From IMG/VR virus record IMGVR_UViG_3300029107_000039: a DNA stretch of 18,596 nt; one strand, written 5' to 3'. A program made the position numbers and the translations under genes. Shown piece after piece: positions 97-13,686 of this stretch. The stretch is from a virus (taxonomy: Duplodnaviria; Heunggongvirae; Uroviricota; Caudoviricetes). The first letter of the stretch is position 1. Every line of letters starts with the position of its first letter. Under the pieces are notes generated by a model. That model saw only the letters and a list, made by a program, of their open reading frames with translations. It did no database searches and was not told the DNA's origin.

Positions 97-97
97 G

Positions 98-546
98 TTT
101 CTAAGCTGCCTGTACGGCAGTGAACCGTTCGCACATTTCCGCGTACCCGTTGATGTCTTTCTAAGCTGCCTGTACGGCAGTGAACACCAGGACCGCGTAA
201 TCACTAATGTGGAGTTTTTTTCTAAGCTGCCTGTACGGCAGTGAACCATATAACGGCGAAAAAATGGGGGCACTATCCTTTCTAAGCTGCCTGTACGGCA
301 GTGAACGCGTGACAACCGAGCAATTTTCAGCGCTTGAATTTCTAAGCTGCCTGTACGGCAGTGAACCTGGCTGCTGAATATTTCGCAGAAAATCCGGGTT
401 TCTAAGCTGCCTGTACGGCAGTGAACTCCGCCTGTGGTATCAGGTCGGTGCTGATGAGTTTCTAAGCTGCCTGTACGGCAGTGAACATATGTGCGTCAAA
501 GAGCAAAGTTTGATTGATTTTCTAAGCTGCCTGTACGGCAGTGAAC
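98..546 (-). CRISPR. Type I-F CRISPR array A: 8 repeats, 7 spacers, transcribed on the minus strand
   Basis: Eight exact copies of the 28-nt TTTCTAAGCTGCCTGTACGGCAGTGAAC on the + strand (reverse complement of GTTCACTGCCGTACAGGCAGCTTAGAAA) starting at 98, 158, 219, 279, 339, 399, 459, 519. Spacers of 32-33 nt at 126-157, 186-218, 247-278, 307-338, 367-398, 427-458, 487-518. Leader-like AT-rich sequence lies on the right. Confidence 0.95.
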
Positions 547-817
547 TGGAATAATAGCAGACTATCCGATTGATTTACTGTTAAAACTTACAAAATCGCA
601 GATTCAACCCCTTTTTCCAGACTTCAAAATAGCAATAAACAAAATCAATGAGTTACATTTCAACCTAAAAAAAGGGTCGATTTGTTACTTCTTCAATCTC
701 ATATTTTCTGCATAGTTTTTGATAAACAATTAAACAGAACACATACGGTCATAATCTCCGTCACGCAAACAGCATGTTCATTGCGTAACCAAACGAATCA
801 ATCTCTATAAATTCTTC
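547..817 (-). promoter_or_regulatory. Leader of array A (AT-rich, expected to contain the array promoter)
   Basis: Directly abuts the last repeat. AT-rich. Shares motifs with the sequence right of array B (CAAAAT ... CCCCTTTTTT ... CAATAAC), indicating homologous leaders; by-eye alignment only. Confidence 0.5.
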
Positions 818-846
818 TTGACCGTTTTACTCCAACTCCCTATAGT
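818..846 (+). promoter_or_regulatory. Candidate sigma70 promoter of the tRNA-Ser gene
   Basis: TTGACC (818-823), 17-nt spacer, TATAGT (841-846), followed by a GC-rich discriminator AGCGCCCCG typical of stringently controlled tRNA promoters. The tRNA 5' end is at 890. Confidence 0.45.
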
Positions 847-889
847 AGCGCCCCGTTGCCACCCATGAGGTCAGGCTGCAAAACAATTT

Positions 890-977
890 GGTGAGGTGTC
901 CGAGTGGCTGAAGGAGCACGCCTGGAAAGTGTGTATACGGCAACGTATCCGGGGTTCGAATCCCCGCCTCACCGCCA
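890..977 (+). tRNA. serW: tRNA-Ser (anticodon GGA), long variable arm, encoded CCA end
   Basis: GGTGAGGTGTCCGAGTGGCTGAAGGAGCACGCCTGGAAAGTG... with anticodon loop CCT-GGA-AAG, T-arm CGGGG-TTCGAAT-CCCCG, 3' ACCGCCA. 88 nt, class II tRNA. Symbol assigned from its position next to clpA in E. coli-like genomes. Confidence 0.9.
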
Positions 978-990
978 TATTTTAAGAAGA

Positions 991-1018
991 GCTCGTACGA
1001 AAGTACGGGCTTTTTTTT
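991..1018 (+). terminator. Rho-independent terminator of the tRNA
   Basis: GCTCGTAC-GAAA-GTACGGGC (8-bp stem with one G-U, GNRA-type tetraloop) followed by T8 at 1011-1018. Confidence 0.6.
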
Positions 1019-1044
1019 CGCATTAATGCGCCTTAAATAAAAAA

Positions 1045-1071
1045 CACGTACTTCCTCTTCGAAAGTACGTG
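1045..1071 (-). terminator. Rho-independent terminator of the fimbrial operon
   Basis: Hairpin CACGTACTT-cctcttcga-AAGTACGTG. On the minus strand it is followed by TTTTTTATTT (plus 1035-1044). Lies about 30 nt downstream of the adhesin-frame stop at 1099. Confidence 0.5.
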
Positions 1072-1098
1072 AAAATCAGTGGCTGATTACTATACCCA

Positions 1099-2119
1099 CT
1101 AGTCGTAGGATACGGCAAATATGGCTTTGCTTTGGACTTCTCCTGGCTGTAGTGCTTCCTCATTCACGCGGACATATTTCGCGGTAATCGGGAAGGTGTA
1201 CTGATTCTCAATGGCCGCCATTTTAGTTAGTTTGTTCATCAGAGTATCACCCAGCTTTAGCTGGTGTCGTTGCGTTACCATTATAAATCTGGAACCCAAC
1301 CCCCTTAGCACCATTAAGCGATGTGTTTTTCAGAATGGTTCCACTATCATCCCATTCACCGCGCGCAACTTTAAAAGTCACTGGATTAGTCGTGACGTTA
1401 TAAACACTGTCACAATTTAAAACCAGATCTATAGAACCTGATTTTGTGTTATTGGCAGATTGCATCTCACTTATCGTTGTTTCTGGCATTCTTATTTCGT
1501 AAGTCGGTTGCGAGAAACTACAGGTTGTAGGTTTGTGTTTTGTTATATTAACATTTAAATTCTGTTGATAATCAGCATCAGTTGGTAACTTGTTGCCCCA
1601 CCAACAAAGTAAATAAATGAAGGCATTACTATAGCAAAGTTTATCAAAGAAGTTATTTTCAAATGGAAAGACAACCGCAGGAGCATTCAAGATGAATGAA
1701 TTAGAATATACTGTTTGAACATTCGCATTACTGTCAGGCGATTTTATATATGAAGCTGTTAATGCTATGCTTTTATTATTAATAGTATCGTTAACTGAAT
1801 AAGTCTTCCTGCCTCCCGTATCAACAGGAAATCCATCTCCGACATCAAGATTAAACTTAATATAAATTGATTGATTGCTGTTTTGATTTTCTTTCATCTC
1901 TACAACATAATTATCTAATGTTTTAAGCACATTTACCTTATCTTGAGTCGAATTACATGTAAATTCTCCCGTCAGATTAGGAGAAAATGTAACCGTTGCA
2001 TTTCCCGCAGTTAAGTCTAAATTAACCCCCTGTATTGCAGTAGAATTTCCGTTGATAGTACATTTAGCCTGCCCCCAAAATGGCAAAGCCAGTAGAAACA
2101 AAAACCAATATTTCTTCAT
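1099..2119 (-). pseudogene. Fimbrial tip adhesin (two-domain, FimH-like pilin-domain C-terminus), split by an apparent +1 frameshift near 1247-1252
   Basis: ORF 1247-2140 starts with a signal peptide at the ATG at 2119 (MKKYWFLFLLALPFWGQA, AAGGA RBS) and ends ...GVGFQIYNGNATTPAKAG-TGA. Skipping one nucleotide at GCT GGG (T) GAT continues into ORF 1099-1314 as ...DTLMNKLTKMAAIENQYTFPITAKYVRVNEEALQPGEVQSKAIFAVSYD, which resembles a fimbrial pilin-domain C-terminus (FimH ...LTANYARTGGQVTAGNVQSIIGVTFVYQ, from memory). Could be a true pseudogene or a sequence error. Confidence 0.6.
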
Positions 2120-2130
2120 AAACAAATCCT

Positions 2131-4617
2131 TTAGCGACAAATATAAACTTTATTCTCATCAATAACGTTATCAAAGGTAATAGTGCAGAATTGTTCCTGC
2201 TGTTTATTAACCGAGACGCGAATCGCCGCGGGAACATCATTGGTGCGAATAAATATCCGACTTCCCTGTCCTACCAAGCCCACATTGTTGCCGCTTTCAT
2301 CTTCAACCTCATAACCAAACGGCAACGGAGAGCCATCAGGGCGTTGGGAGATGAAATACCAAGGCTTGCGTTTATCAGTCTCAAACTGCGTCATCACTAC
2401 CGCACCACGATAAGGAACGGTGTTTTTACGGTTACCCAGTAGCGCCACATCGCTTTTACTGTCGGCAATATCCAACATCAACGTATTTTCACGATACGGC
2501 GTCAGGTTGTCATAAATAGCGTAGCCTCTGCTATCCGTGGTCAGGTAACGATATCCCTGCACCGCTGCTCCCTCCAGTCCCGGCGCTTTGACGATGGCGA
2601 ACGTATCAGAAAGTCTGGGAGCCAGTGCCACCCCGTCCGACCACGCGACTAAACCGCCTTGAATATTACCGCTAATCTGTTGATATCTTTTCGACTGGCT
2701 ATAGCTGCCACCAATGGTCGCCAATGGCGCACGCCAGGTCAGGTTTCCACCTGCGGTTGTTTCGCTACCCTGTTGCTGATGGCTTAAGTTAGCCCCGTAG
2801 CTGAACTGATCGCGACTCCCCGCTACACCGCTGAGACTGGTATTATTCGACCGATAGCCGTCTTTATCAAAAGTGGTCGAGTTAGAAACAAATAAATCTC
2901 GTCGTTTTTCAGTGATTCCATCGCCCCACGAGAAGGGAATTGAGAAATATAAGTTAATGCGTCTATCTTCGCGGTTATCTTCATCGTAAGTCTGGCTAAC
3001 AGACAAGGTATAACTAAGGCGTTCCCAGGAGTTCGAATAGCTGAGTTGATAATCTTTCCCTGTCCCGCTGCGTTCCCAATAATCCCGCCATTGACCGCTG
3101 ACCGACAGATATCCCCAATCATCTGGTAATGACTGGTTTATATTTACAGAAAAGCTGTTCTTGCGACCAAAATCGTACTGATAATAGTCGGCAATGTCAT
3201 AAACAGAGTCATCTTCTCGATTATATCTATTCCTGTTATTTGCCCATACGTGATCGTTAAAAGTACGATAATCCCGAGAGGAGTAACGCCAGGCCGCCAG
3301 AGAAAATTGCGTCCCACTCTGTGAGAGATATTTGTTCCAGGCAATCTGATAACTTTGACCATTAAATACATCACCGTTATCTTGTTCACTGTGGGAATGG
3401 GTAAAATCAACCGATACAGCACCAATCGGTGTATTCCATCCCGTGCCGAGAACAAACGATGAGTAATTATCAGACAACTGCGTGCCAGCATAGAGAGTCA
3501 GCAAATTATTAAGGCCATACTGATAGCTTCCCTGAATAAAATCCGACTGATTGCTGGCTCCCTCAATACGACTACGTCCGGCAGCAAATTCATATTTCGA
3601 AACGCCCGGTTGCAACATATTTGGTACAGATGAATAAGGTACACGATAACGCGATACCGAACCGTCAGCTTCTTTAACAGTAACTTCCAGATCGGCACCA
3701 CCACCAGCAAGTTGCAAATCATCAATGGCGAATGGACCTGGTGGAACCTCCTTCTGGTAAATAACAAAACCATTTTGTTCTATAGTGACGAGTGCGTTGC
3801 TCTGGGCAATTCCTCGCACTATAGGAGTAAAATTCTGTTTAGAGTTCGGCAACATCTGCATATCGCGCCAGAGGCGTACCCCGCGAAAACGCACGGAGTC
3901 AAAAACATCAGAGCCGGTATACATTTCACCAGCACGCAATGTGCCAAGAATTTGTGGAATTCCGCGCTCCAGATATAACGTGTTACTCTTCCATTTACCG
4001 CTGCTCTGGTCACTTTTCGTATAATTGGCATTTGAATGCAACTGCCAGCCCAGAAGATTCAAACCACTGTTCAGATTTAAATAGCTACTTTTATTATCTC
4101 CTCCGTGCTTATAATTACTGTAATACTGACTGGCATAATAAGATGTATATAATGCGTTAATCCCGCGATCCCATGCCTCAGGCGGGACATATCCGCGTTC
4201 ATACTCAACGACATAGGCTTGGGGTACACTTAACTTCAGGTTAAAATGCCCAATATCATAGTCAACGCTGCCGCCCTGTACCGCTTCCCGAAGTGGTACA
4301 CATTCTACGCTTTTATCGATATTAATGCCTTCTGTGAGGATACCTATTTGCTTTAACTGCTCCCAGGATAAACATGTTGCATCCGGATCATCTTTAATAT
4401 CGACATTATAATGTCCGCGCCACTGATTATTCAGGTATACATCCATATCATAGATACCGGGCATCGGCTTATTACTATCGATATGATAGTCAGAAATTTT
4501 TTCCCCATTTAATCCGCCAATCATAAAATGGGTGTCAAATGTTTCATCTTCCGCCCATGCAGACGAAGTTGCCAACACCGACAGGATAGCCAGCGTAATA
4601 GAATTAAGTTTAGACAT
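2131..4617 (-). CDS. Fimbrial outer-membrane usher protein
   Basis: About 828 aa from the ATG at 4617 (MSKLNSITLAILSVLATSSAWA signal peptide; CAGGGA RBS). Length and composition are typical of chaperone-usher ushers, with a C-terminal Cys pair (CTITFDNVIDENKVYICR). Sits between the chaperone and adhesin genes. Confidence 0.9.
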   Translation of the reverse strand: MSKLNSITLAILSVLATSSAWAEDETFDTHFMIGGLNGEKISDYHIDSNKPMPGIYDMDVYLNNQWRGHYNVDIKDDPDATCLSWEQLKQIGILTEGINIDKSVECVPLREAVQGGSVDYDIGHFNLKLSVPQAYVVEYERGYVPPEAWDRGINALYTSYYASQYYSNYKHGGDNKSSYLNLNSGLNLLGWQLHSNANYTKSDQSSGKWKSNTLYLERGIPQILGTLRAGEMYTGSDVFDSVRFRGVRLWRDMQMLPNSKQNFTPIVRGIAQSNALVTIEQNGFVIYQKEVPPGPFAIDDLQLAGGGADLEVTVKEADGSVSRYRVPYSSVPNMLQPGVSKYEFAAGRSRIEGASNQSDFIQGSYQYGLNNLLTLYAGTQLSDNYSSFVLGTGWNTPIGAVSVDFTHSHSEQDNGDVFNGQSYQIAWNKYLSQSGTQFSLAAWRYSSRDYRTFNDHVWANNRNRYNREDDSVYDIADYYQYDFGRKNSFSVNINQSLPDDWGYLSVSGQWRDYWERSGTGKDYQLSYSNSWERLSYTLSVSQTYDEDNREDRRINLYFSIPFSWGDGITEKRRDLFVSNSTTFDKDGYRSNNTSLSGVAGSRDQFSYGANLSHQQQGSETTAGGNLTWRAPLATIGGSYSQSKRYQQISGNIQGGLVAWSDGVALAPRLSDTFAIVKAPGLEGAAVQGYRYLTTDSRGYAIYDNLTPYRENTLMLDIADSKSDVALLGNRKNTVPYRGAVVMTQFETDKRKPWYFISQRPDGSPLPFGYEVEDESGNNVGLVGQGSRIFIRTNDVPAAIRVSVNKQQEQFCTITFDNVIDENKVYICR

Positions 4618-4631
4618 AATCAATCCCTGAT

Positions 4632-5312
4632 CTATTTGACGGTTTTTATTTTTTCACTCAAATAGTTTCCATTATCATCAATCAGCGTAACATTGTAATG
4701 GCTAACAACGGAGGCCGTGGTGACGGTCTGTTCTGACCAGGGAGCTAGTACCAGCGTTTCTTTATTTACTTTGGTATTACCTGTCAGTTCGGGAATAGTT
4801 ATCCAGTTCGCTGAATTATTTTTTATATTGATACCACCACTGACAGGTCTGATATTCAGTCGAGAAAAACTCCCTTTATCGACACCTGCTATACCTTCCG
4901 GACGATAAATAAATTTAATGCGGTTTTGCATCGCGAATTTAATCTGGTTTTTACTCTCATTTTTCTCACTATTAGGTGGAATATCCAGGACATTGAGAAA
5001 GAACAAGCTTTCGCGATCTTTAGGTAGGGTATTCGTCAGTTGCTTAATTTTAAGTTGCTGCCCCCCTCCTCCTTTTACGTGAGCTACCGGTGGCGTCAGC
5101 ACAAACGGAACATGAATTTTTTCTGGGGGCAGGCTGGTATCGCCATCATCAATCCACGACTGAATCAGAGCACTGCGCTCACCTTCATTCATTAATTGAA
5201 CGGTAATCTCTTTTTTCTGTTCTGGATAAATAACGCGAGTGCCGTAGATATAGACTCCGCCCCACACAGGCGTGACCATGCCGACCAGCAAAAAGGCTAT
5301 TAACTTTTTCAT
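4632..5312 (-). CDS. Periplasmic fimbrial chaperone (PapD-like)
   Basis: 226 aa from the ATG at 5312 (AAGGAG RBS 8 nt upstream). Signal peptide MKKLIAFLLVGMVTPVWG. PapD-family-like N-terminal region (TRVIYPEQKKEITVQLMNEGERSALIQSWIDDGD). Confidence 0.9.
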   Translation of the reverse strand: MKKLIAFLLVGMVTPVWGGVYIYGTRVIYPEQKKEITVQLMNEGERSALIQSWIDDGDTSLPPEKIHVPFVLTPPVAHVKGGGGQQLKIKQLTNTLPKDRESLFFLNVLDIPPNSEKNESKNQIKFAMQNRIKFIYRPEGIAGVDKGSFSRLNIRPVSGGINIKNNSANWITIPELTGNTKVNKETLVLAPWSEQTVTTASVVSHYNVTLIDDNGNYLSEKIKTVK

Positions 5313-5333
5313 GGCAACACTCCTTGTTGTAAA

Positions 5334-5352
5334 ATATCGGCGGCAGCCGCCG
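5334..5352 (-). other. Intercistronic hairpin between the major-subunit and chaperone genes
   Basis: ATCGGCGGC-a-GCCGCCGAT, a perfect 9-bp GC-rich inverted repeat between the subunit stop (5365) and the chaperone start (5312), with no strong T-run. Resembles the mRNA-stabilising or attenuating stem-loops found after major pilin genes. Confidence 0.4.
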
Positions 5353-5364
5353 ATAAGCAAAGTA

Positions 5365-5907
5365 TTAATCTGTTACGACAGTCATTGTCAACGCAGATTT
5401 AACATCACCAGAGGTCACTGAAGTATCAGATTTTGCATATCTTGCACTAAAGTTAAGCGTATATAAGTCATTCGTATCTTTCCCATTTAATTCAATAACT
5501 CCATCCTTTGTAATTCTCTTTTCCTCATCATTATTAACATAATAGACAGCAAACCCAGCGCCATTATTCGAAGCAGTATTAACCGTAATATTGTCATAAG
5601 AGTCAACAAATTGCGAACTAGAAAACGTAATTCTTGGCGTTTTATCTCCGGTACATTTAACTTTCAGAGGCACGGTAGTTTTATTTGAATAAGTATCAAC
5701 GGTACTGCCAACAGTTACATTTTCGAATTGATCAGCACCAATTTCGTTCATCGCAATTGTTGCAGTAGTACCGTCAATAAATTGACATGTAGTCCCCACG
5801 ACTTTACCGGTAATAATTAACTCCCCCTGTTGATTCCCTTCTGCAAATGCTCCTGCACTCATAAAAAGAGATGATAATACCGCAACTGCAATAATTGAAT
5901 GTTTCAT
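5365..5907 (-). CDS. Fimbrial major subunit (pilin)
   Basis: 180 aa. Signal peptide MKHSIIAVAVLSSLFMSAGAFA. Cys pair (TCQF ... KVKCTG) typical of pilins. First gene of the operon, with AAGGA RBS; followed by chaperone, usher and adhesin. Confidence 0.85.
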   Translation of the reverse strand: MKHSIIAVAVLSSLFMSAGAFAEGNQQGELIITGKVVGTTCQFIDGTTATIAMNEIGADQFENVTVGSTVDTYSNKTTVPLKVKCTGDKTPRITFSSSQFVDSYDNITVNTASNNGAGFAVYYVNNDEEKRITKDGVIELNGKDTNDLYTLNFSARYAKSDTSVTSGDVKSALTMTVVTD

Positions 5908-6323
5908 AGTCTATTCCTTAACTAATTTGCTTTACCTTAATAAGAGATATCAATCTCCTGACAAGAAACTTCTCAAAACGAAGATGTTGTAGCAATGTAA
6001 ATTATTTGTTTTCGTGACTTACATCAAATTATTTTAATTTAACACCGGAGAGAAATATTACACTACAAATATTTCCTAAGTTTATTTTATTTAATAATCG
6101 CATTTCTAATCAGAACAATAATAATGCTGGTTATTATTAGTCACCCAAATTCATATTTTTATGATTCGAGATAGATAATAAAAATTATTTTTAGCGAAGA
6201 AGACAACCTCCCTGATATGAACAACAACTATCGAACGCACTCAAGTTCCGCTTCTCAACGACCTGATCACACGGCAAAAAAAAGCCCAACCACACGGTCA
6301 GGCCTGTCCGAAATTGCAAACTA
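5908..6323 (-). promoter_or_regulatory. AT-rich upstream regulatory region of the fimbrial operon (promoter not pinpointed); also holds the csy4-distal A8/T8 tract
   Basis: 416 nt with no ORF of 60 aa or more, very AT-rich, containing AATAATAA-tgctgg-TTATTATT palindrome around 6115-6140. An A8 run at 6276-6283 is T8 on the minus strand, 40-47 nt after the csy4 stop; it may be part of a csy operon terminator but no clean hairpin was found. Confidence 0.35.
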
Positions 6324-6878
6324 TCAAAACCAGGGAATAGTTGCTGTTGCGCTTAATCCATAACTACTGAATTCCCCTTTCACCGGTTCAGTGAGCAAAT
6401 CACCATGACGGATAAACAGCTTGAACTGTTGCTGACTCGATAAACTCTTCATATTGAGAAAGGGTAAATCGGTCCGCCGTTCAGTTTGCGTCGCCAGTCG
6501 CTCAATTGCCTGTTCTTTAGTGAGCCAGCCCTTTTTTACTGAACGCCTTAACAGACGCAGGGGGTTACTTTTAACCTGCACACGGCTTACCACTCGCCAG
6601 CCTTTTATTTCAGGAATAGGAGTGACAGGTGAACATTGGCAATAGTCCGTAAGTCCTTTACGCCACGTTGAGGCTTCAAGCGCCTGCAATGCCGGGGCGC
6701 TGCCGTGTAAGCGTAAACGCGCTCCCGGCGTAACATTCACGTCCGGGAAACTCACGCCGATATCACCTTGCCCTCTTGCGCCTAATGCCCGGTGCAATTT
6801 GGCAAATAACGCTGCCATCAACATTTCACTCGAAAATTCAGGATCTGGCAGAACGCGGATCTCAAGGTAGTGCTCCAT
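6324..6878 (-). CDS. cas6f: Csy4 / Cas6f crRNA endoribonuclease
   Basis: 184 aa from the ATG at 6878 (AAGGAG RBS): MEHYLEIRVLPDPEF...AKLHRALG (conserved His)...FIRHG...YGLSATATIPWF. Closely resembles Pseudomonas Csy4 as recalled. The ORF track extends to 6920 using an upstream alternative start. Confidence 0.9.
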   Translation of the reverse strand: MEHYLEIRVLPDPEFSSEMLMAALFAKLHRALGARGQGDIGVSFPDVNVTPGARLRLHGSAPALQALEASTWRKGLTDYCQCSPVTPIPEIKGWRVVSRVQVKSNPLRLLRRSVKKGWLTKEQAIERLATQTERRTDLPFLNMKSLSSQQQFKLFIRHGDLLTEPVKGEFSSYGLSATATIPWF

Positions 6879-6888
6879 TGGCAGCTCC

Positions 6889-7890
6889 TTATTCCGCTTT
6901 CTCACCAAAGACACCGCCACGGATCAGCACTGCCATCACGTAGTGCTGTTGATCAACGTCTGGTTTCATCCCTTTAGTCACCCAATTGTCCAGTAAGGTA
7001 TAAAAATCGAGTTTTTCTTTCGGTTGGCGGCAGGCCACACCGCGACTGGTTACAGAACCGTAAGGTTCCACGGCGATAGCCCCCAACTCATCAACCTTCG
7101 GATGCCAGGTGTCAATAGTACGTAAAGCGTTGCCAATTTTTTGGGAGTGAATACCGGCAATGCCTGCAACCTGGTACAACACGCGACTTTTGCTACTGTT
7201 GCTGTCGAGCACCAGTTCCTGTGATGGGAAGACTTCTTGCCCGGCACCGAGGCGAACCTGCGCTTCAACGGTAAGCATCACCCACTCTTTTCCGCTTAAT
7301 CCTTGTTCAATTATTGTCGCCAGTTCTGTGACGCTACTCTGGCCTTGATCAAATTGACGCAAGGAGAAGTCATGACTGTTAAAAGTCCAGGACGAATCAT
7401 TAGCAGTAACTTTCACCTGGATCTGCTCAGCACCAATGCGGTTGCGCCACAAAAAACGACCATTTGCCAGATTCAGCGCATAGCGAAGCGCCAGCTCTTT
7501 AAAACCATGCTCGCTGATATAGCCGTCAATAACGTCGGAAAGCGCCTCCTGATAGGCCATATCATTACATACTGAAGGTGAAGATAAATTACCCAGCACT
7601 CGCAGCGTAAACACCACTTTTAGCGTATCAGCATCTACCGGAAGCGAGGCTACATCTACCCGCTGCAAGTTGGCTTTTTGGATTTCAGCATCCAGTTTGG
7701 TGGGGTCACTGGTAATCGTGTTTTTCAGGCGATTAGAAATGGTTCCGCGAACCGCTTTTTCCTGAATCTCAATGGGTTGCCATTCATTTCCTTGCCAGTT
7801 ACCTGCGTACATCGCCGCGTCAGACGTTGCCAGTTTGCGTTCAAATGCCAGTACCGACGCCGTTTTTATTGCTACAGGGGCCTTTGCCAT
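6889..7890 (-). CDS. cas7f: Csy3 / Cas7f Cascade backbone subunit
   Basis: 333 aa from the ATG at 7890 (AAGGAC RBS): [20 protein letters not shown]...[10 protein letters not shown]...LIRGGVFGE. Csy3-like. Stop at 6889, 11 nt before the csy4 start. Confidence 0.9.
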
Positions 7891-7900
7891 AATTATGTCC

Positions 7901-8824
7901 TTATTCTGAATCGTCATCTTCATTAGTAGTAGGGTCGTCAACGAGTGGTATTGCCGAGCAATAGTAGCCAGTGTCCGTCGTACGATAGCGCCACATCAGC
8001 GGTTGCAAATCAGTAATGCGATGTAATCCACGCCATTCGCCAATGCCATAAACCGCTTCGGCAAAGGCAAATGGCGTCACGGTATCGCGCGCATTTTCAA
8101 CTTCACCGGGAGCGTAAACAGGAGATATGCGTTGGTAACCGCACATTAACGGTACCAGGAAACCAGGCATTGGCTTCGGCTGGTATACCCATTGTGCGCT
8201 GTTGTCTTCTGCCGGAGATTCGGCCTGATATTTAATCGTGGCAAAATCAAGCCAGGCATCAAGCAACGATATGTCGGGATGTTGTTGGTGATGTTCAGCC
8301 AGCCATTCGCTGCGGTCGTAAAGCGCGTAACCTGGCATTAAACGCCAGATGATTTTACGCAGTTGCTTTTCATCTTCAGGCGCATGAAAAAGCTGAGGAT
8401 CGCGCATGTCAACAATGCTGCCGCCCGCCAGTTTGTGGCTCTGGCAGAGCATTTTCAGATGGTCACAAAGGGCTTTTCTACCGTATTCACCATTGGTAAT
8501 TTCGCCATTACATTCAATCAGCAGAGAGACCGTCAGGTGCATACGCCCCTCTTCATTAAATGAGGCGGTTTTACCTTCTCTGGTTAGTGGATTACGGGTG
8601 AGAGCGAACTGAAAATCGCGCCCGGAGCTGTACGCCTGAATATGTTGTTCATGGCTAACGACCGCGCAACCGTCAAAACTTACGCCAAATTCATCCACCA
8701 CTTTGCGAGAAAGCGCATGAACATAGCCGAGAAAATGGGTCATCGACGGGAATCCCCAGGTCAACCCGGAGACAGCGTTGGCGTTTTCGATACGTACATG
8801 GGGTAACAAGAGCAGATAACTCAT
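7901..8824 (-). CDS. cas5f: Csy2 / Cas5f Cascade subunit
   Basis: 307 aa: [27 protein letters not shown]...NPLTREGK...LHLTVSLL...GEWRGLHRI. Csy2-like. Its ATG overlaps the csy1 stop (ATGA at 8821-8824). Confidence 0.9.
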
Positions 8825-10128
8825 TTCAGCGCCTCCTGCAAAACGGCTTCCATTTCACGCATCCGTTGAGCGAACAGGGACTGACTGCGCCACTCTTTTT
8901 GCTCGATAGCACCTACATCGAAACTGGCTTTTTTCAGGCGATAGTTCAGCCAGCGCGCGAAATCCTCGGCCACCTTACCCTGCCAGTCGTTTTTTTCACG
9001 CTCCAGTTTGAAAGCCTCATCTGACAGGCTTCGCCACGGATCCAGCCACAGTTGCTGGTGGCGCGGTAAGGCTGGTGATTGCGCGGACCATCCCTGCCAT
9101 TTTTCTTGTTGAAAAGAGGATGCCTGCATAAACAGCAAATCTATCAACTCATCAATATATTTCGCCCGTGTGGTACGGATATGAACATTATTTTTGTCAA
9201 CTTTCAGAAGATAGGTCATACGGGCGATAATGCCCGAGGCCGCCCGATTGAAATCGCCACGTAAGGCAAAAATACTGCGCATGTTTTGTGGTGCGCGATC
9301 CAGCGCCGCCCAGGTGGGCGGCATTGATGGCAACAGCCAGACACGGCCAACTCTGGCACTGTTTAGCAGGGAGATATTCTGTTGATTTCCACCTCCATAA
9401 TGCATCTCTGCAAGATTCGGGAAACGAATATCTGGCTGTGAGTGCCATTTACCTGCTTTGTGCGCATCGCGAATAGCTTTTGATTCCTCGCTAAAGCGCA
9501 CGGCAGTTAGCTTTTCATACATCACCTGTGCCAGCGAACTGGAAAACAGCGGGCAGAGCAGATGATAGCCATCATCGACAGGGAAATAGATTTGCTTCGA
9601 AAGTTTATGTGCTTTTATCCACTCCGAAGCATATGCTTCACTAAAGCATTCAACCCATTGTTTTAATTGTTCATCATCCAACGCAAAGGCATTTAATGAT
9701 TGATAATCACCACGTTTTAAGCTGGCGAGTAATGAATCACCGTTGGCTTCCGTTAGCAGTAGTTTTGCAACATCAAAAACGGCTGCATTGCCTTCAGCAT
9801 CCTCTTTAATAATTGCCAGTGATGCTGTATTTAAATATCCCTCGCTGACGAATTTCTCCAAATAACGCCCATATGCTTTGGAGTCACCATTACTATATTT
9901 TGCCCCGTGGGAGATTATCCTTATAGAACGAACACGTTTCGCCGCATCCGTTAACCAGTTACGTGGCAGGTAGCGTGCTTCGAGTTCCTGTCGCTCCAGA
10001 GCGATAACGCTGGCGTCCTCGCCCTGTTCCAACCGCTTTGCTGCTTCTTTTTCAAAGGCTTCGATCTTGGGTTGCCTTCGCGAAGCGATGTAGTCAGTGA
10101 TAAATTGTATTAGCGCCGTTTTTTCCAT
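8821..10128 (-). CDS. cas8f: Csy1 / Cas8f large Cascade subunit
   Basis: 435 aa. ATG at 10128 with AAGGAG RBS. Csy1-like motifs (KQIYFPV, GGGNQQNISLLNS, WLLPSMPP, QQLWLDPWR). First gene after the 324-nt gap following cas2-3. Confidence 0.9.
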   Translation of the reverse strand: MEKTALIQFITDYIASRRQPKIEAFEKEAAKRLEQGEDASVIALERQELEARYLPRNWLTDAAKRVRSIRIISHGAKYSNGDSKAYGRYLEKFVSEGYLNTASLAIIKEDAEGNAAVFDVAKLLLTEANGDSLLASLKRGDYQSLNAFALDDEQLKQWVECFSEAYASEWIKAHKLSKQIYFPVDDGYHLLCPLFSSSLAQVMYEKLTAVRFSEESKAIRDAHKAGKWHSQPDIRFPNLAEMHYGGGNQQNISLLNSARVGRVWLLPSMPPTWAALDRAPQNMRSIFALRGDFNRAASGIIARMTYLLKVDKNNVHIRTTRAKYIDELIDLLFMQASSFQQEKWQGWSAQSPALPRHQQLWLDPWRSLSDEAFKLEREKNDWQGKVAEDFARWLNYRLKKASFDVGAIEQKEWRSQSLFAQRMREMEAVLQEALK

Positions 10129-10195
10129 CTCGGCTCCTTTCGTTAATCCATCAAATTGAAGTTGCTCCCTGACTTCACTGAAAAATCTCCGTAGC

Positions 10196-10258
10196 CTAAC
10201 CAGACTTCAGTACAACGACACACACAGCAAAAGGGGCAACGCCCGTGGTGATAATCAT
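10196..10258 (-). other. Candidate 20-codon hydrophobic mini-ORF (MIITTGVAPFAVCVVVLKSG) with SD, immediately downstream of the crRNA-like target site
   Basis: Minus strand AGGTGA-actatcc-ATG ATT ATC ACC ACG GGC GTT GCC CCT TTT GCT GTG TGT GTC GTT GTA CTG AAG TCT GGT TAG. Below the 60-aa ORF-track threshold. Could be chance. Confidence 0.2.
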
Positions 10259-10268
10259 GGATAGTTCA

Positions 10269-10281
10269 CCTAGAGGTATCT
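10269..10281. promoter_or_regulatory. Predicted Cascade binding site: CC PAM plus 11-nt seed match to the spacer of the crRNA-like element
   Basis: Plus strand CC-TAGAGGTATCT at 10269-10281 equals PAM plus spacer positions 1-11 of the mini-array spacer (10400-10410). The match begins exactly at spacer position 1 and is lost from position 12 onward. Confidence 0.6.
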
Positions 10282-10288
10282 ACGTTTT

Positions 10289-10316
10289 AATCTAGTTAAA
10301 CCCATGAAATAACCAA
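10289..10316 (-). promoter_or_regulatory. Candidate minus-strand promoter whose predicted start abuts the Cascade target site (may drive the mini-ORF and/or csy1-4)
   Basis: Minus strand TTGGTT (plus 10311-10316), 16-nt spacer, TAGATT (plus 10289-10294); predicted TSS near 10281. Hexamers are weak; by-eye call only. Confidence 0.2.
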
Positions 10317-10342
10317 GAGTGATATTACCATGCATAAAATAT

Positions 10343-10371
10343 TTGCAACACAATGGTTTAATAACTAACAT
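10343..10371 (+). promoter_or_regulatory. Candidate plus-strand promoter for the crRNA-like RNA
   Basis: TTGCAA (10343-10348), 17-nt spacer, TAACAT (10366-10371); the predicted start falls inside the first pseudo-repeat, just before its hairpin. By-eye call only. Confidence 0.25.
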
Positions 10372-10452
10372 TCACGCACTGCCATCGGCAGCTTAGAAAT
10401 AGAGGTATCTCCGGATACGGACTTGTAAACTGCCGTACAGGCAGCTAACCCA
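10371..10452 (+). ncRNA. crRNA-like mini-array (pseudo-repeat, 25-nt spacer, pseudo-repeat), inverted relative to the cas genes; candidate Cre-type regulatory RNA
   Basis: Pseudo-repeat 1 (10371-10399) TTCAC-gca-CTGCC-atc-GGCAG-CTTAGAAA keeps the Cas6f hairpin stem and an exact 8-nt 5' handle. Spacer-like TAGAGGTATCTCCGGATACGGACTT (10400-10424). Pseudo-repeat 2 (10425-10452) GTAAA-CTGCCGTACAGGCAG-CTAACCCA has a perfect hairpin with degenerate flanks and ends at the cas2-3 stop codon. Confidence 0.65.
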
Positions 10453-13400
10453 TCACAGGTTGCGAAACACACCTAACCAGGGGTGATAACGCCAGTCATC
10501 GACCGCATCTTCTTCACTGGCCGGTACTCTCACTTCAGCAAACATTTCTCCAACACGCTGTATTTCACAACTTTGCTTATCAGCTAAATTCAACAAAACG
10601 TGTTGGTAATCCATCACGCCCCAGCAAGCGACGCCGCTGGCGCATCTCACCTCTTCTCGCCTGAAATTCCCTTGCGCTTTACGCTCGTTGTCGCCCGTGC
10701 GGGAATAGAAACGCGCTTCGCTTTCTTCATCATCCATATGCAGAAAAAACACTGCCTCCGGCAAAGGGGAATAACGAAATGGCGTCTGGCGCTGCATCCA
10801 GCCGTTCCAGCTTAGCGGTGCACGCCACCATTGCGCCGCCACCACATGTTTGCTTTTACTGCTCATCAATTCAGCGGATAAACGACTATGCTCAAGCTCC
10901 GCCAGTTTGTTGTCATTATTGGCAGACAGGATCCGCGGCAAGGCGTTAATCGTCCGGTAGTCCGCGATCGGAATCAGTTCGCAAATATCGTGGCTATTAA
11001 GCAAGTGTTCTTTTGTTTCGAAACCAGGCTTACAAAATGCGGGGGCTTTTTTCTGCAATGATTTGATATTACTACGCAAAATAACCAGATTCTCACTAGT
11101 CGGCACATTTCTACGGTGGCGCTGAATACGTCCGGCAAATTGAATTATCGAACGCATGGAGCTTGGTTCGATAATTCCCCAGTCCGCATCCCAGTCACGC
11201 CCCACCTCTATAACCGATGTCCCCAACACCACAAACAGATGGTGCGATTCCGGACGGTTATGTAAGGCTTCAGCAATATCCTCGTTGTTCCAGAAATCGA
11301 GTTCGTTATGGCGGGTAAAAGCGCGGTCCAGGCGCTTCTCAATATCTGAACGTACTGCCAGTGGATGTCGGGAGTGGTAAACACAATAATGAATGCAGAC
11401 ATCTTCTGGTGATGGAATGGCGATCAGGGCTTTGGTCACTGCGACCAGTGGATTGATATTCGCGAAGCGCACCAGGCCCAGCGAAACGGTTTTACCGCTT
11501 TCTTGCTGCTGGCGATGTGCCTGATGCAACTTCAGCATTTGCGCATGTACCGTCTGAGCCACGCTTTCGGTAACATCCTGAATCGCGTTTGATGCAGATG
11601 AAATAGAAGCAATACGTCCGAAATGCAGTCGTTCTTTTTCGGCCAACATTAACGCTCGTCGCGCAACAAACTTTTTGTGCGTCTCACGAAAAGTAGCGCC
11701 ATCGCCAATTTGTATGGCGTCGGCATCTTTTTCATCAAACCAGGCACAGCAAATATTGACGGGTCTGCCGTTCGTACCGCATGACGACTGCCACATTTTA
11801 CGCCCGGCAAGATAAGCCGCGAACAGCGCCTGAATCAGCCCTGGCGGCAACGTCGCGGAAGAAAGTAATACCCGCGTTCCCAACATTCCGGCCCAATTCA
11901 TCAGACGACATACTGCATGAAGATCGGCAATATCAAAGTCGTCAGGTTCATCGAGCACTAAATCGCTGGTTAACAAACGCAACATCGAAGGAAGCTGTTT
12001 TCCGCCTCGCACACCTTCGGTCGCAGAAATAAGATGATCAATGGTTGCTACCAGAATCGGTGCGCTTACTAACGCCTTAAGTTTGCTGTCATCCTTCAAC
12101 CATTTTTCCAGCGCCCCGGTATGCAGACTACCTTCATATTTAACAAACTGTTGCTCCTCTGCCAGCGATTCTTGCGAAGCACTTCCGCAATCATTGTCTG
12201 TTTTTTCCTGCTGCCACAGTTGCTTAACTGCCGCCGAACCAATCAGTACCGCCAGCTCATCCTCACCCAGTCCAAGCCGACTGCGCAGAGCATCGCCGGT
12301 TTGCAAAGTCAGCGTGCGCAATCCCAGCGCGACGGTAAAACGGCACCCTTCCCGCTCATCGGTAAGCGCATACATAATGCGGGCGTTAGCAAAGGTTTTA
12401 CCGCACCCCGTCGAGGCCATATTGACACCGAAAAAACCGTCTTCCCGGCTTCGCTCACGTAACGCACGTGCCACATCCCAGGCTTTATCCTGCCAACGAT
12501 ATTTCGCGTCTGTGGCCCGTTGGCTAAAGCCTTTATGTCGGGCAATTGCCGGAAGCGATGCACGTGTGTGCATCAGTTGCCGCCCAAGTAGATACGCATG
12601 ATGCGCGACGCCGACCAGATGCTCATCTACCCGTTGTTTGAGCGTGCCGCTCTGCCGATCGCTATTTGCCCAGACGATATAATTCGGGTCTTGCCATTTT
12701 TGCTGCGCGTCGTTAGATGAATAGTAGTGATCGGCAAGCATCAGGCAAAAACGCGCCATATGTAACGGAAACAGTTGCTCCATCTGCCCCCATTCCTTTA
12801 GGCCGATCGCGTTACACGCCCTACGGGCAATCTGACGCGCTTTTTCTCGCCAGCTCGCGCTTTGAAGCGGCGTTCCTGACGGAAATTGCCAGACTTGCTC
12901 GAAATCCTGTTGTGACCAGTCATTCTTACGGTGGTTAACGGCATTCCAGTCAGCATTGAGTTGTTTCTCCAGCCAACTATCACAGCCTTTACATGATTGT
13001 TCCGGTTGTGGCGAAAGATTCTCCGGCATTCGATGATGGGAAAGGATCAACCAGCCTACCGTTTTGGCGAGTGGTTGCAGCGAACTGAATGGACTATTTG
13101 AAAAATGAGGCGTGTCTTTTTGCAGGCACTCAAGGATCGCGGTTTCATCATCTGCCGTTAATTTCCCAAGTTTTTCCAGCCACACTTCGTCTGGCTGTTC
13201 ACCGACAAAAGCCTGAAAAAGCCGCAGCGAAATCCACTCATGCCGATAAGGCTGATAACTGCGGGCATTCTTTTGGGTCAGGCTTTGCTGAAAGCTGCGT
13301 CCTGCTTTACCAAAATCATGAAATAACCCAGCGATAGCCGCCAGCAGCGCAATACTTTCCGCGCACTGCCAGCGATTTTCTTCTTTTTTCACCAGGCTGG

Positions 13401-13686
13401 TTTGCGTTGTTCGATTTGTGGGAACGCGTCCCTGAGCATTAAAACGACGAATATTGCCGACAATCCACATCAACTCCGTTTGCCCATTCTTCTTCAGCCA
13501 GTGACAAGCCACTGCGGTATTTCGCCGGGCAGTTTTGCGCAGTAAACGGCGAAGTGTATTAACCCCTTCCAGAGTAATCACCGTTTGCCATGCGGCGTCA
13601 CCAGTGCGTTCGGCAAATTGATCAATAATACGGCAGCTCTCCACTCGAGCATTTTTTGTGCAGCGCGAGATAATCAGGACGTTCAT
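10453..13686 (-). CDS. cas3: Cas2-Cas3 fusion (type I-F signature nuclease-helicase)
   Basis: 1077 aa. N-terminal Cas2-like region, HD nuclease motif (LFHDFGKAG), helicase Walker A (STGCGKT) and DExD box (LVLDEPDD). Its ATG overlaps the cas1 stop (ATGA at 13683-13686). Confidence 0.95.
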   Translation of the reverse strand: MNVLIISRCTKNARVESCRIIDQFAERTGDAAWQTVITLEGVNTLRRLLRKTARRNTAVACHWLKKNGQTELMWIVGNIRRFNAQGRVPTNRTTQTSLVKKEENRWQCAESIALLAAIAGLFHDFGKAGRSFQQSLTQKNARSYQPYRHEWISLRLFQAFVGEQPDEVWLEKLGKLTADDETAILECLQKDTPHFSNSPFSSLQPLAKTVGWLILSHHRMPENLSPQPEQSCKGCDSWLEKQLNADWNAVNHRKNDWSQQDFEQVWQFPSGTPLQSASWREKARQIARRACNAIGLKEWGQMEQLFPLHMARFCLMLADHYYSSNDAQQKWQDPNYIVWANSDRQSGTLKQRVDEHLVGVAHHAYLLGRQLMHTRASLPAIARHKGFSQRATDAKYRWQDKAWDVARALRERSREDGFFGVNMASTGCGKTFANARIMYALTDEREGCRFTVALGLRTLTLQTGDALRSRLGLGEDELAVLIGSAAVKQLWQQEKTDNDCGSASQESLAEEQQFVKYEGSLHTGALEKWLKDDSKLKALVSAPILVATIDHLISATEGVRGGKQLPSMLRLLTSDLVLDEPDDFDIADLHAVCRLMNWAGMLGTRVLLSSATLPPGLIQALFAAYLAGRKMWQSSCGTNGRPVNICCAWFDEKDADAIQIGDGATFRETHKKFVARRALMLAEKERLHFGRIASISSASNAIQDVTESVAQTVHAQMLKLHQAHRQQQESGKTVSLGLVRFANINPLVAVTKALIAIPSPEDVCIHYCVYHSRHPLAVRSDIEKRLDRAFTRHNELDFWNNEDIAEALHNRPESHHLFVVLGTSVIEVGRDWDADWGIIEPSSMRSIIQFAGRIQRHRRNVPTSENLVILRSNIKSLQKKAPAFCKPGFETKEHLLNSHDICELIPIADYRTINALPRILSANNDNKLAELEHSRLSAELMSSKSKHVVAAQWWRAPLSWNGWMQRQTPFRYSPLPEAVFFLHMDDEESEARFYSRTGDNERKAQGNFRREEVRCASGVACWGVMDYQHVLLNLADKQSCEIQRVGEMFAEVRVPASEEDAVDDWRYHPWLGVFRNL

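What the first reader, a model, noticed from the sequence alone, without database searches (positions are those of the whole stretch)
1045..6323. AT-rich chaperone-usher fimbrial operon embedded inside the CRISPR-Cas locus, separating array A from the cas genes
A four-gene fimbrial operon (pilin, chaperone, usher, tip adhesin) with its own terminator and a 416-nt AT-rich upstream region sits between csy4 and the tRNA-Ser gene. Sampled stretches are visibly AT-rich, roughly one-third GC against about half in the cas and clp genes (by-eye counts on 60-nt samples). This suggests horizontally acquired cargo inserted next to a tRNA gene. As a result array A and its leader are about 5.8 kb and a tRNA gene away from csy4, while array B abuts cas1. 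An adhesin operon co-localised with a defence locus is unusual and could reflect a shared island or later insertion.
Basis: partly seen in the sequence, partly recalled or inferred. Interest (0 to 1): 0.6.

Follow-up and report, generated by a model that had tools for sequence, protein, structure and literature searches.

The report
Yeh-like fimbrial operon inside CRISPR locus
A four-gene pilus (fimbrial) operon related to E. coli Yeh pili sits between a serine tRNA gene and the cas genes of a type I-F CRISPR-Cas locus; this is the usual, long-standing layout in Escherichia marmotae rather than a fresh insertion, and in this sequence the tip adhesin gene is broken, so the finding is real but fairly ordinary.

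Summary
A pilin-chaperone-usher-adhesin operon on the minus strand (1099-5907) lies between tRNA-Ser serW (890-977) and csy4.

Compared with a canonical E. coli I-F locus, the extra DNA is window 1018-6273 (5.26 kb). It sits exactly between the serW terminator and the cas-operon terminator.

- GC is 0.42, not about one third. Only the pilin gene, the adhesin gene and the upstream region are 0.32-0.37. The core yeh operon of K-12 is equally AT-rich.
- The adhesin gene carries a frameshift near 1261.
- serW separates array A from csy4 in every Escherichia I-F locus examined, with or without the operon.
- There is no integrase and no att repeat.

The operon belongs to the Yeh/Yhl/Stc gamma-4 group. 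Its usher is 64% identical to YehB, and 80-83% identical to the ushers at the yeh locus of Citrobacter and Salmonella diarizonae. The predicted adhesin head best matches the YhlD and YehD crystal structures.

The same cas-fimbrial-tRNA-Ser(GGA) layout occurs in every E. marmotae-type contig read, in Escherichia sp. E1V33, E. whittamii, and 1 of 241 I-F-positive E. coli. Synonymous divergence is close to that of the cas genes, so this is an old co-resident. Nothing indicates a functional link to CRISPR.

In E. coli, an IS1 composite transposon carrying half of serW has moved the operon onto IncF plasmids.

The parts
98..546 (-). CRISPR array A: 8 perfect 28-nt I-F repeats and 7 spacers
   Evidence: Rfam CRISPR-DR4 on the minus strand
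547..889 (-). AT-rich leader of array A (GC 0.36), conserved with E. coli I-F loci that lack the operon
   Evidence: window 274-1017 aligns to L003 at 86.5%
890..977 (+). tRNA-Ser(GGA), serW
   Evidence: 100% identical to E. coli serW
994..1017 (+). serW terminator hairpin and T-run; left boundary of the extra segment
1018..6273 (-). 5.26-kb segment absent from canonical E. coli I-F loci (the fimbrial module)
   Evidence: homology to empty-site locus L003 ends at 1017 and resumes at 6274; alignments
1045..1071 (-). intrinsic terminator of the fimbrial operon (11-bp stem followed by TTTTTTATTT)
   Evidence: conserved in relatives
1099..2119 (-). two-domain tip adhesin gene, frameshifted near 1261. 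The truncated ORF is 1247-2119 (290 aa) and the displaced C-terminal part is 1099-1314. The receptor-binding domain is encoded by ~1529-2065.
   Evidence: structure and fold search
2131..4617 (-). outer-membrane usher (828 aa), 64% identical to K-12 YehB
4632..5312 (-). periplasmic chaperone (226 aa), 55% identical to YehC
5365..5907 (-). major pilin (180 aa), 35% identical to YehD; strongly allelic among strains
5908..6273 (-). AT-rich (about 0.32 GC) upstream regulatory region of the operon. No yehE-like gene. Poorly conserved between lineages.
6282..6305 (-). terminator of the cas operon (T-run to 6272); right boundary, shared with loci that lack the operon
6324..14666 (-). type I-F cas operon: csy4 6324-6878, csy3 6889-7890, csy2 7901-8824, csy1 8821-10128, cas2-3 10453-13686, cas1 13683-14666
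14838..15406 (-). CRISPR array B: 9 perfect repeats plus a degenerate terminal repeat at the cas1 end. By inference its leader lies towards clpA.

Best explanation
Window 1018-6273 is a minimal four-gene chaperone-usher fimbrial operon (major pilin, chaperone, usher, two-domain tip adhesin) of the gamma-4 Yeh/Yhl/Stc group.

Location. It occupies the short gap between the serW terminator and the cas-operon terminator of the Escherichia type I-F CRISPR-Cas locus, which lies in the clpA-serW-infA interval.

History. It is an old accessory module. It is the normal configuration in the E. marmotae-like lineage the window comes from, and it is inherited or exchanged together with the adjacent cas genes. 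It is not a recent tRNA-targeted island.

Mechanism if intact (inferred from the family). The chaperone would deliver subunits to the usher. The usher would polymerise the pilin into a thin fibre. The fibre would be capped by an adhesin whose N-terminal domain has the beta-jelly-roll plus alpha-helical-flap fold of YehD/YhlD and binds a carbohydrate or mucosal ligand.

State in this window. A frameshift removes the last ~50 residues of the adhesin's pilin domain, which are needed for chaperone binding. The tip adhesin is therefore very probably non-functional and the organelle cryptic or defective.

Relation to CRISPR. The co-location appears to be positional only: two accessory modules in one permissive intergenic hot spot. 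crRNA processing and interference act in trans, and array A keeps its own leader, so 5.3 kb of extra spacing should not matter.
For: Identity of the operon:
- Pfam domains and gene order fit a chaperone-usher operon.
- Identity to K-12 YehB/C/D is 64/55/35%.
- The usher is 80-83% identical to operons flanked by metG-mrp-yehE and rcnB-thiM-thiD in S. enterica diarizonae and Citrobacter.
- The AF2 model of the adhesin head (pLDDT 89.9) best matches YhlD 8V9V and YehD 9N4G (probability 1.00, TM 0.57-0.65). FimH is next at TM 0.35.

Boundaries:
- Homology to the empty-site E. coli locus ends at 1017 and resumes at 6274.

Age and co-inheritance:
- The same layout occurs in E. coli Rb-50, Escherichia sp. 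E1V33 and E. whittamii.
- It occurs in all 6 places shown for the window's pilin (12 contigs carry it) and all 10 distinct places read for its exact Csy4, which is listed in 296 blocks.
- Four-fold-site divergence to other Escherichia lineages is 0.17-0.18 for the usher and 0.18-0.39 for cas genes.
- Low GC is a family trait.

Inactivation:
- The frameshift is shown and is reproduced in 6 contigs.
- About half of the related loci carry other, independent disruptions.

Species:
- The best adhesin hit is named Escherichia marmotae.
- PMC8148099 reports that a clade V strain's I-F cluster 'and adjacent genes' resemble E. marmotae.
Against: - Pilus assembly, the ligand and expression are inferred from family membership and a predicted structure. 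Nothing was measured.
- The usher is somewhat less diverged than most cas genes, while the pilin, chaperone and adhesin head are far more diverged. The module is therefore mosaic, and recombination blurs any simple 'old vertical' history.
- Whether the operon-containing state is ancestral (lost in E. coli) or derived (gained and then spread by recombination) was not resolved.
- No E. marmotae genome without I-F was examined, so linkage to cas could not be tested in that species.
- Read-through from the co-directional cas operon into the fimbrial genes cannot be excluded from sequence alone.
Confidence: 0.75

Rival explanations
1. Recent horizontally acquired island inserted at the tRNA gene by a site-specific integrase.
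For: - The operon lies immediately 3' of serW and is AT-richer than its flanks.
- It is absent from 240 of 241 I-F-positive E. coli.
- serW is a genuine integration site: one related contig (L039) has a P4-type integrase island beside a 17-nt serW 3' remnant.
Against: - The insert contains no integrase and nothing beyond the four genes.
- No repeat of the serW 3' end is present at the far boundary.
- The layout is shared by four Escherichia lineages, with 17-18% four-fold-site divergence in the usher.
- Equal AT-richness is seen in core yeh operons.
Confidence: 0.06
2. Reverse order of events: the fimbrial operon was resident beside serW first, and the I-F cas module with array B later inserted between it and clpA.
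For: - The operon abuts serW and cas abuts clpA, so either order gives the present map.
- I-F itself is accessory in Escherichia: 241 of 5426 E. coli carry it.
Against: - No E. coli genome has the operon at serW without cas.
- Cas without the operon is common, and it uses the same serW and terminator junctions.
Confidence: 0.12
3. Functional coupling: the fimbrial operon is co-regulated with, or contributes to, the defence locus. Examples would be read-through transcription from csy4, or surface remodelling linked to phage exposure.
For: - All genes from cas1 to the adhesin are co-directional.
- At this locus the operon was only ever seen together with cas genes.
Against: - A strong terminator and about 365 nt of AT-rich promoter-type DNA separate csy4 from the pilin gene.
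- The operon decays independently in about half of the related loci while cas stays intact.
- The same operon exists without cas on plasmids, in a pheV island and at the yeh locus of other genera.
- No spacer matches the operon.
Confidence: 0.04
4. Assembly artefact: a metagenome contig wrongly joined at a repeated tRNA gene.
For: - Window 5347-15907 is 100% identical to the stored part of a metagenome contig (ENA ERZ1745588 NODE_259, locus L032).
- tRNA-Ser(GGA) has more than one near-identical copy per E. coli genome (median three matching places per genome; serW/serX named from my own knowledge of K-12).
Against: The identical layout is present in complete chromosomes and many isolate assemblies (CP056159.1, CP025979.1, CP056697.1, AP025682.1).
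Confidence: 0.01

Closest known systems
Yeh pili of E. coli (K-12 yehDCBA, b2111-b2108; the Hultgren-lab naming is yehABCD with YehD as the adhesin)
   Same: - Four-gene minimal order: pilin, chaperone, usher, adhesin.
- Usher 64%, chaperone 55% and pilin 35% identical.
- Same low GC, about 0.42.
- The predicted adhesin head has the YehD-type beta core plus two-helix flap (PMC12778044).
   Different: - It lies at serW-cas6f, not metG-mrp/rcnB-thiM.
- There is no yehE-like gene upstream.
- The adhesin head has no detectable sequence similarity to YehA of K-12.
- The adhesin is frameshifted here.
Yeh-like (Yhl) pili of phylogroup E E. coli (adhesin head structure 8V9V)
   Same: - Best structural match of the predicted adhesin head (E 6.7e-07, TM 0.57-0.61).
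- Same minimal operon type (PMC12778044).
   Different: - Only 14% identity in the head domain.
- According to PMC12778044, Yhl is present in over 90% of phylogroup E and about one eighth of E. coli. This operon matches only 104 of 5426 E. coli genomes at megablast level, so it is a different type.
Operons at the yeh/stc chromosomal position of Salmonella enterica subsp. diarizonae and Citrobacter spp. (Stc-position fimbriae)
   Same: - Closest relatives outside Escherichia: usher 80-83%, chaperone 73-76%, pilin 59-64% and adhesin 46-57% identical.
- Same gene order and low GC.
   Different: - They are flanked by metG-mrp-yehE and rcnB-thiM-thiD.
- Four-fold-site divergence of 0.58-0.69 indicates genus-level age.
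Canonical E. coli type I-F CRISPR-Cas locus (CRISPR3/CRISPR4 between clpA and infA)
   Same: - Same order: infA, array, serW, cas6f ... cas1, array, clpA.
- Same 28-nt repeat.
- cas genes 88-94% identical at nucleotide level.
   Different: serW is about 110 nt from cas6f there. Here 5.26 kb of fimbrial DNA lies between them.
IS1 composite transposon carrying this operon in E. coli (IncF plasmids such as pEC416_1, and chromosomal islands)
   Same: - Same operon, with the usher 96% identical at nucleotide level.
- It includes the 3' half of serW and the fimbrial terminator.
   Different: - It is bounded by inverted IS1 copies, cut inside serW (window 921-923) and about 320 nt upstream of the pilin.
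- It has no cas genes.
- The window contains no IS.

Membership tests
Chaperone-usher fimbrial operon, gamma-4 Yeh/Yhl/Stc group | Genes for a PapD-type chaperone, a PapC-type usher and Fimbrial-domain subunits in one operon | tested here: met
   Pfam hits for PapD_N/C, PapC_N+Usher+PapC_C and Fimbrial (twice), all above gathering score except PapD_C
Chaperone-usher fimbrial operon, gamma-4 Yeh/Yhl/Stc group | Minimal four-gene order: major subunit, chaperone, usher, two-domain adhesin (PMC12778044) | tested here: met
Chaperone-usher fimbrial operon, gamma-4 Yeh/Yhl/Stc group | Usher groups with YehB/StcC-type ushers | tested here: inconclusive
   The usher is 64% identical to YehB over its full length, and 80-83% identical to the ushers at the yeh/stc position in Citrobacter and S. 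diarizonae. No usher tree including other gamma-4 types was built.
Chaperone-usher fimbrial operon, gamma-4 Yeh/Yhl/Stc group | Adhesin receptor-binding domain with a beta-jelly-roll core plus a two-helix flap | tested here: met
   The AF2 model (pLDDT 89.9) has helices at 139-144 and 148-156. Its top Foldseek hits are 8V9V and 9N4G, with probability 1.00. This is a predicted structure, not a solved one.
Chaperone-usher fimbrial operon, gamma-4 Yeh/Yhl/Stc group | Position at the yeh/stc locus (metG-mrp ... rcnB-thiM), used by Wurpel et al. to define the Yeh type | tested here: not met
   The window operon is at serW-cas6f. Only the Citrobacter/Salmonella relatives are at the yeh locus. It is therefore a related but distinct type, not Yeh itself.
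Chaperone-usher fimbrial operon, gamma-4 Yeh/Yhl/Stc group | All four genes intact (functional operon) | tested here: not met
   The adhesin is frameshifted near 1261
tRNA-associated integrative genomic island | Integrase gene next to the tRNA | tested here: not met
   The insert is fully accounted for by four fimbrial genes plus intergenic DNA
tRNA-associated integrative genomic island | Direct repeat of the tRNA 3' end at the distal boundary | tested here: not met
   No second copy of the serW 3' end within 3 mismatches lies near 5900-6330
tRNA-associated integrative genomic island | Variable presence among related genomes | tested here: met
   Absent from 240 of 241 I-F-positive E. coli; present in E. 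marmotae-type, E1V33 and E. whittamii loci
IS-bounded composite transposon | Insertion sequences at both ends | tested here: not met
   There is no IS in the window. The feature is met only in the E. coli plasmid and island copies.
Type I-F CRISPR-Cas locus (the context) | cas1, cas2-3 fusion and csy1-4, plus 28-nt repeat arrays | tested here: met
   Pfam hits for Cas_Csy1-4; Cas1 and the Cas3_I-F_Cas2 fusion in near-identical relatives; Rfam CRISPR-DR4 matched 17 times

The most novel reading that the evidence does not exclude
The I-F cas genes and the Yeh-like fimbrial operon form one exchangeable cassette. It moves between Escherichia species by homologous recombination at the clpA/infA flanks.

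This chromosomal cassette would also be the source from which IS1 captured the operon, together with half of serW, and seeded a family of IncF-plasmid-borne Yeh-like fimbriae in livestock and human E. coli.

A stronger version adds transcriptional read-through from csy4, so that pilus expression tracks cas expression.
Probability: 0.12. Interest if true: 0.45.

Novelty: new member of a known kind. Interest (0 to 1): 0.27.

Why it matters
The direct value is clarification.
- An apparently odd 'adhesin inside a defence locus' turns out to be two accessory modules sharing the clpA-serW-infA hot spot.
- The tRNA gene inside the CRISPR-Cas locus is normal for Escherichia type I-F.

Two modest points could interest specialists.
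- E. marmotae and some other non-coli Escherichia carry an unnamed Yeh/Yhl-family pilus. Its pilin and adhesin head are highly allelic and it is often pseudogenised. This bears on host and niche adaptation of the cryptic clades.
- The truncated serW carried by the IS1 transposon marks a chromosomal serW-linked operon as the origin of fimbrial operons now on E. coli IncF plasmids.

Neither point changes the understanding of CRISPR-Cas or of chaperone-usher assembly.

Tried and rejected
- Sequence search of the repaired adhesin against PDB chains found nothing at E<=1. The family link came only from the predicted fold.
- A yehE-like gene upstream of the pilin was sought and not found.
- A minus-strand sigma-70 promoter in 5908-6273 was not detected by the consensus scan. 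Only weak inverted repeats are present, and there is no convincing invertible-switch structure.
- Rfam found only CRISPR repeats in the window. At gathering score it did not call the 178-nt repeats of L006 as RtT.
- Spacers from both arrays were compared with the window and all fetched loci. Apart from the identical contig L032, none matched the operon or any other fetched locus, including the plasmid segment L004.
- No 9-bp target duplication flanks the IS1 composite on pEC416_1.
- Wurpel et al. 2013 (PMC3559732) was searched for a named E. coli fimbrial type at serW, clpA or CRISPR. No mention was found. The window's exact fimbrial type therefore remains unnamed as far as I could see.
- The four-fold-site calculation for the adhesin pilin domain used too few sites and is disregarded.
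Full report
**Map of the window**

All genes from clpS to the fimbrial adhesin are on the minus strand. From left to right the window holds:

| Feature | Coordinates | Evidence |
|---|---|---|
| CRISPR array A (8 perfect 28-nt I-F repeats, transcribed on the minus strand) | 98-546 | |
| AT-rich leader of array A | 547-889 | |
| tRNA-Ser(GGA) serW, plus strand | 890-977 | |
| Four fimbrial genes | 1099-5907 | |
| csy4, csy3, csy2, csy1, cas2-3, cas1 | 6324-14666 | |
| Array B (degenerate repeat at the cas1 end) | 14838-15406 | |
| clpA and clpS | 15631-18258 | |

**Check of the observation**

The four genes carry the expected domains.
- Pilin, 5365-5907: Fimbrial domain.
- Chaperone, 4632-5312: PapD_N and PapD_C.
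- Usher, 2131-4617: PapC_N, Usher and PapC_C, E = 3e-190.
- Adhesin, about 340 aa: its C-terminal half is a Fimbrial domain.

An 11-bp-stem intrinsic terminator follows the adhesin stop at 1071-1045.

Computed GC is 0.42 for the operon, against 0.50 for the cas genes and 0.52 for clpA/S. By part it is adhesin 0.37, usher 0.45, chaperone 0.43, pilin 0.365 and upstream region 0.32.

The adhesin is not intact.
- Alignment with five relatives shows one extra base near 1261 (ACACCAGCT versus ACACC-GTT). It is not in a homopolymer.
- The gene is split into a 290/297-aa ORF (1247-2119/2140) and a displaced C-terminal piece (1099-1314).
- The truncated protein occurs in six contigs of the public collection, including a human gut metagenome. 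It is therefore not a one-off assembly error.

**Exact limits of the extra DNA**

A canonical E. coli I-F locus (strain CEA212U, L003) reads infA, array, serW, cas6f. Only 110 nt separate serW from cas6f. Homology between the window and that locus ends at 1017, the end of the serW terminator T-run. It resumes at 6274, the T-run of the cas-operon terminator at 6305-6282.

The additional segment is therefore 1018-6273 (5256 nt). It replaces about 24 nt of the empty site.

The segment holds nothing but the four genes, their terminator and about 365 nt of AT-rich upstream DNA. There is no integrase. No second copy of the serW 3' end lies at the distal boundary.

serW lies between array A and cas6f whether or not the operon is present. 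The 'tRNA gene inside the CRISPR locus' is thus the normal Escherichia I-F layout and not a consequence of the operon.

**What kind of fimbria**

Identity to K-12 Yeh proteins:

| Window protein | K-12 counterpart | Identity |
|---|---|---|
| Usher | YehB | 64% |
| Chaperone | YehC | 55% |
| Pilin | YehD | 35% |
| Adhesin head | YehA | none detectable |

NCBI's annotation of the E. coli copies also labels the pilin 'YehD'.

A scan of species-representative genomes found 20 loci.
- The closest relatives outside Escherichia have ushers 80-83% identical. They are in Salmonella enterica subsp. diarizonae and five Citrobacter species.
- There the operon lies between metG-mrp-yehE and rcnB-thiM-thiD. 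This is the yeh/stc position.
- Wurpel et al. (PMC3559732) treat this position as ancestral to Escherichia, Salmonella and Citrobacter.

Sequence search of the adhesin against PDB chains returned nothing. The fold told more.
- An AlphaFold2 model of the head domain, built from a 40-sequence alignment, has mean pLDDT 89.9. It is beta-rich with two helices at 139-144 and 148-156.
- Its best Foldseek matches are the YhlD (8V9V) and YehD (9N4G) receptor-binding domains. Probability is 1.00, TM is 0.57-0.65 and identity is 14%.
- FimH follows far behind at TM 0.35.
- This is the 'alpha-helical flap' adhesin class described in PMC12778044.

The operon is therefore a distinct member of the gamma-4 Yeh/Yhl/Stc group.
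- It is not Yeh itself, because it is at the wrong locus and has no yehE.
- It is not Yhl. According to PMC12778044, Yhl is carried by about one eighth of E. coli. This operon matches only 104 of 5426 E. coli genomes.

**Composition is not evidence of recent arrival**

The core yehDCBA operon of K-12 has GC 0.425 against 0.51-0.52 in its flanks. The Citrobacter and Salmonella operons at the yeh locus have 0.43-0.45 against 0.50-0.55. Low GC is a property of this fimbrial family.

**Source organism and distribution**

Source:
- clpA/S is only 93-94% identical to E. coli.
- Window 5347-15907 is 100% identical to the stored part of ENA metagenome contig ERZ1745588 NODE_259 (locus L032). It is about 97% identical to chromosome CP056159.1.
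- The best adhesin hit (92%) is named Escherichia marmotae by NCBI.
- PMC8148099 reports that a cryptic clade V strain's I-F cluster 'and adjacent genes' resemble E. marmotae, and that its cas genes differ by 8.6% from phylogroup B2 E. coli.

Distribution within this lineage:
- The window's exact pilin occurs on 12 contigs; all 6 places shown have it directly after the csy genes.
- Its exact Csy4 is listed in 296 blocks of the collection. All ten distinct places read have the fimbrial operon directly after csy4 and before serW/infA.

Other lineages:
- The same layout occurs in Escherichia sp. E1V33, E. whittamii and E. coli Rb-50.
- In E. coli, 241 of 5426 complete genomes carry I-F csy genes. 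Only Rb-50 has the operon at serW.
- No E. coli genome has the operon at serW without cas.

**Age of the module**

Differences at four-fold degenerate sites, comparing the window with other genomes:

| Gene | vs Rb-50, E1V33, E. whittamii | vs Salmonella/Citrobacter |
|---|---|---|
| Usher | 0.17-0.18 | 0.58-0.63 |
| cas genes | 0.18-0.39 | not applicable |
| Chaperone | 0.40-0.43 | 0.64-0.65 |
| Pilin | 0.50-0.55 | 0.63-0.69 |

The module has thus been in this position for about as long as the adjacent cas genes have been diverging among Escherichia lineages.

It is also mosaic. Loci that share an identical Csy4 carry pilin alleles of 56-100% identity and adhesin alleles of 56-100% identity in different combinations. 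This pattern is typical of recombination and diversifying pressure on surface-exposed parts.

I could not decide whether the operon-bearing state is ancestral and lost in most E. coli, or derived and spread by recombination through the flanks.

**Decay**

About half of the related loci are disrupted at independent sites.
- One deletion runs from chaperone residue ~181 to usher residue ~120 (L033, L036, L037, L040).
- The chaperone is frameshifted in L039 and L042.
- The usher is frameshifted in L029.
- The usher carries a stop in L036 and L040.
- The pilin carries a stop in E1V33.
- The adhesin is damaged in L033 and in the window.

The cas genes next door are mostly intact. This argues for relaxed selection on the pilus and against any dependence of the defence system on it.

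**Mechanism**

Shown here: the gene content, order, terminators and boundaries, the frameshift, and the predicted fold.

Inferred from established chaperone-usher biology:
- The chaperone caps subunits by donor-strand complementation.
- The usher assembles a pilin polymer tipped by the two-domain adhesin.
- The head domain binds a glycan or mucosal ligand, as shown for YehD (pectin) and YhlD (colonic mucosa) in PMC12778044.

In this window the frameshift removes the last ~50 residues of the adhesin's pilin domain. The chaperone-adhesin complex that normally primes the usher cannot form. I infer that tipped pili are not made.

For CRISPR function, Csy4 processing, Cascade and Cas2-3 act in trans, and array A keeps its leader. 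The extra 5.3 kb should therefore be neutral. This too is inference.

**Mobility in E. coli (seen in passing)**

- Twenty-six E. coli records, both chromosomes and plasmids, carry a 93-94% identical copy. Their match begins at window 921-923, inside the serW anticodon region.
- In both loci inspected, an IncF-type plasmid (pEC416_1, L004) and a chromosomal defence island (L002), the unit is bounded by IS1 copies, inverted on the plasmid, with the same two inner junctions. One cuts serW. The other lies about 320 nt upstream of the pilin.
- The unit therefore arose once from a chromosome with the serW-operon-cas6f layout and then moved as a composite transposon.
- PLSDB holds 39 plasmids with the operon.
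- A more distant allele (87% identical) sits in a pheV island and on other plasmids, without any serW fragment.

**Verdict**

The interpretation as recently acquired cargo next to a tRNA is only partly right. The operon is accessory and belongs to a mobile family, but here it is an old, lineage-typical neighbour of the I-F cas genes. It was not delivered by an integrase and has no detectable functional tie to CRISPR. It is a new, unnamed member of a known kind of fimbria, and it is defective in this sequence.

Noticed in passing
L002 9112-15508; L004 1348-8180 (E. coli chromosome AP027886.1 and plasmid pEC416_1): An IS1-bounded composite unit carries the 3' half of serW plus the whole fimbrial operon. 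L002 and L004 share identical inner junctions, and all 26 E. coli records of this group start their match at the same serW position (window 921-923). The truncated tRNA marks a chromosomal serW-linked operon as the origin of the plasmid-borne copies. No 9-bp target duplication is seen on the plasmid.
   Followed up: partly
L033, L036, L037, L040, L039, L042, L029, L006 (fimbrial genes): Related loci show independent pseudogenisation of the operon: a shared chaperone-usher deletion, several frameshifts, and stops in the usher or pilin. The adjacent cas genes stay mostly intact.
   Followed up: partly
L006 13595-14186 and L017 13590-14183: In Escherichia sp. E1V33 and E. whittamii, three tandem ~178-nt repeats lie between serW and the operon. 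Each contains the last ~18 nt of serW, its terminator and ~110 nt of GC-rich sequence. The window has none. NCBI annotates 'RtT sRNA' beside tRNA-Ser in some E. coli, but Rfam did not call RtT here at gathering score.
   Followed up: partly
L039 12793-14282: One E. marmotae-type contig has a P4-type integrase gene (Arm-DNA-bind_3, Phage_integrase) directly beside a 17-nt remnant of the serW 3' end, next to the adhesin terminator. serW is thus an active integration site, although the fimbrial module shows no such signature.
   Followed up: partly
L017 14183-21558 (E. whittamii Sa2BVA5): Here the tRNA-Ser(GGA) next to the operon is followed by a 2-hydroxyacid dehydrogenase, a PHP protein, a NarJ-like chaperone and the curli genes csgGFED/csgBA. 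From my own knowledge, that is the serX neighbourhood of K-12, not infA. Possible causes are relocation of the module, serW/serX recombination, or a mis-join in an 8x-coverage assembly.
   Followed up: no
window 8821-10128 (csy1): csy1 (Cas8f) is much more diverged from other Escherichia lineages than the other cas genes. It is 83% identical at protein level with four-fold-site difference 0.36-0.39; the others are 94-97% and 0.18-0.35.
   Followed up: no
L031 6920-7473; L027 about 9030-9590: csy4 is split into two ORFs in one related contig. It is not called as a gene in chromosome CP056159.1. Some strains of this lineage may therefore have a defective I-F system.
   Followed up: no
window 1529-2065 versus L005 and P0002: The window's adhesin head allele is closest (88% amino-acid identity) to the allele in the E. 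coli pheV-island and plasmid group. It is only about 56-62% identical to other E. marmotae alleles. This indicates exchange of adhesin heads between otherwise distinct operon lineages.
   Followed up: no
window 60-97: A GC-rich hairpin with an A-run (AAAAAAGCCAGCGGGCGCTGGCTT) lies just beyond the leader-distal end of array A, towards infA. It looks like a terminator.
   Followed up: no
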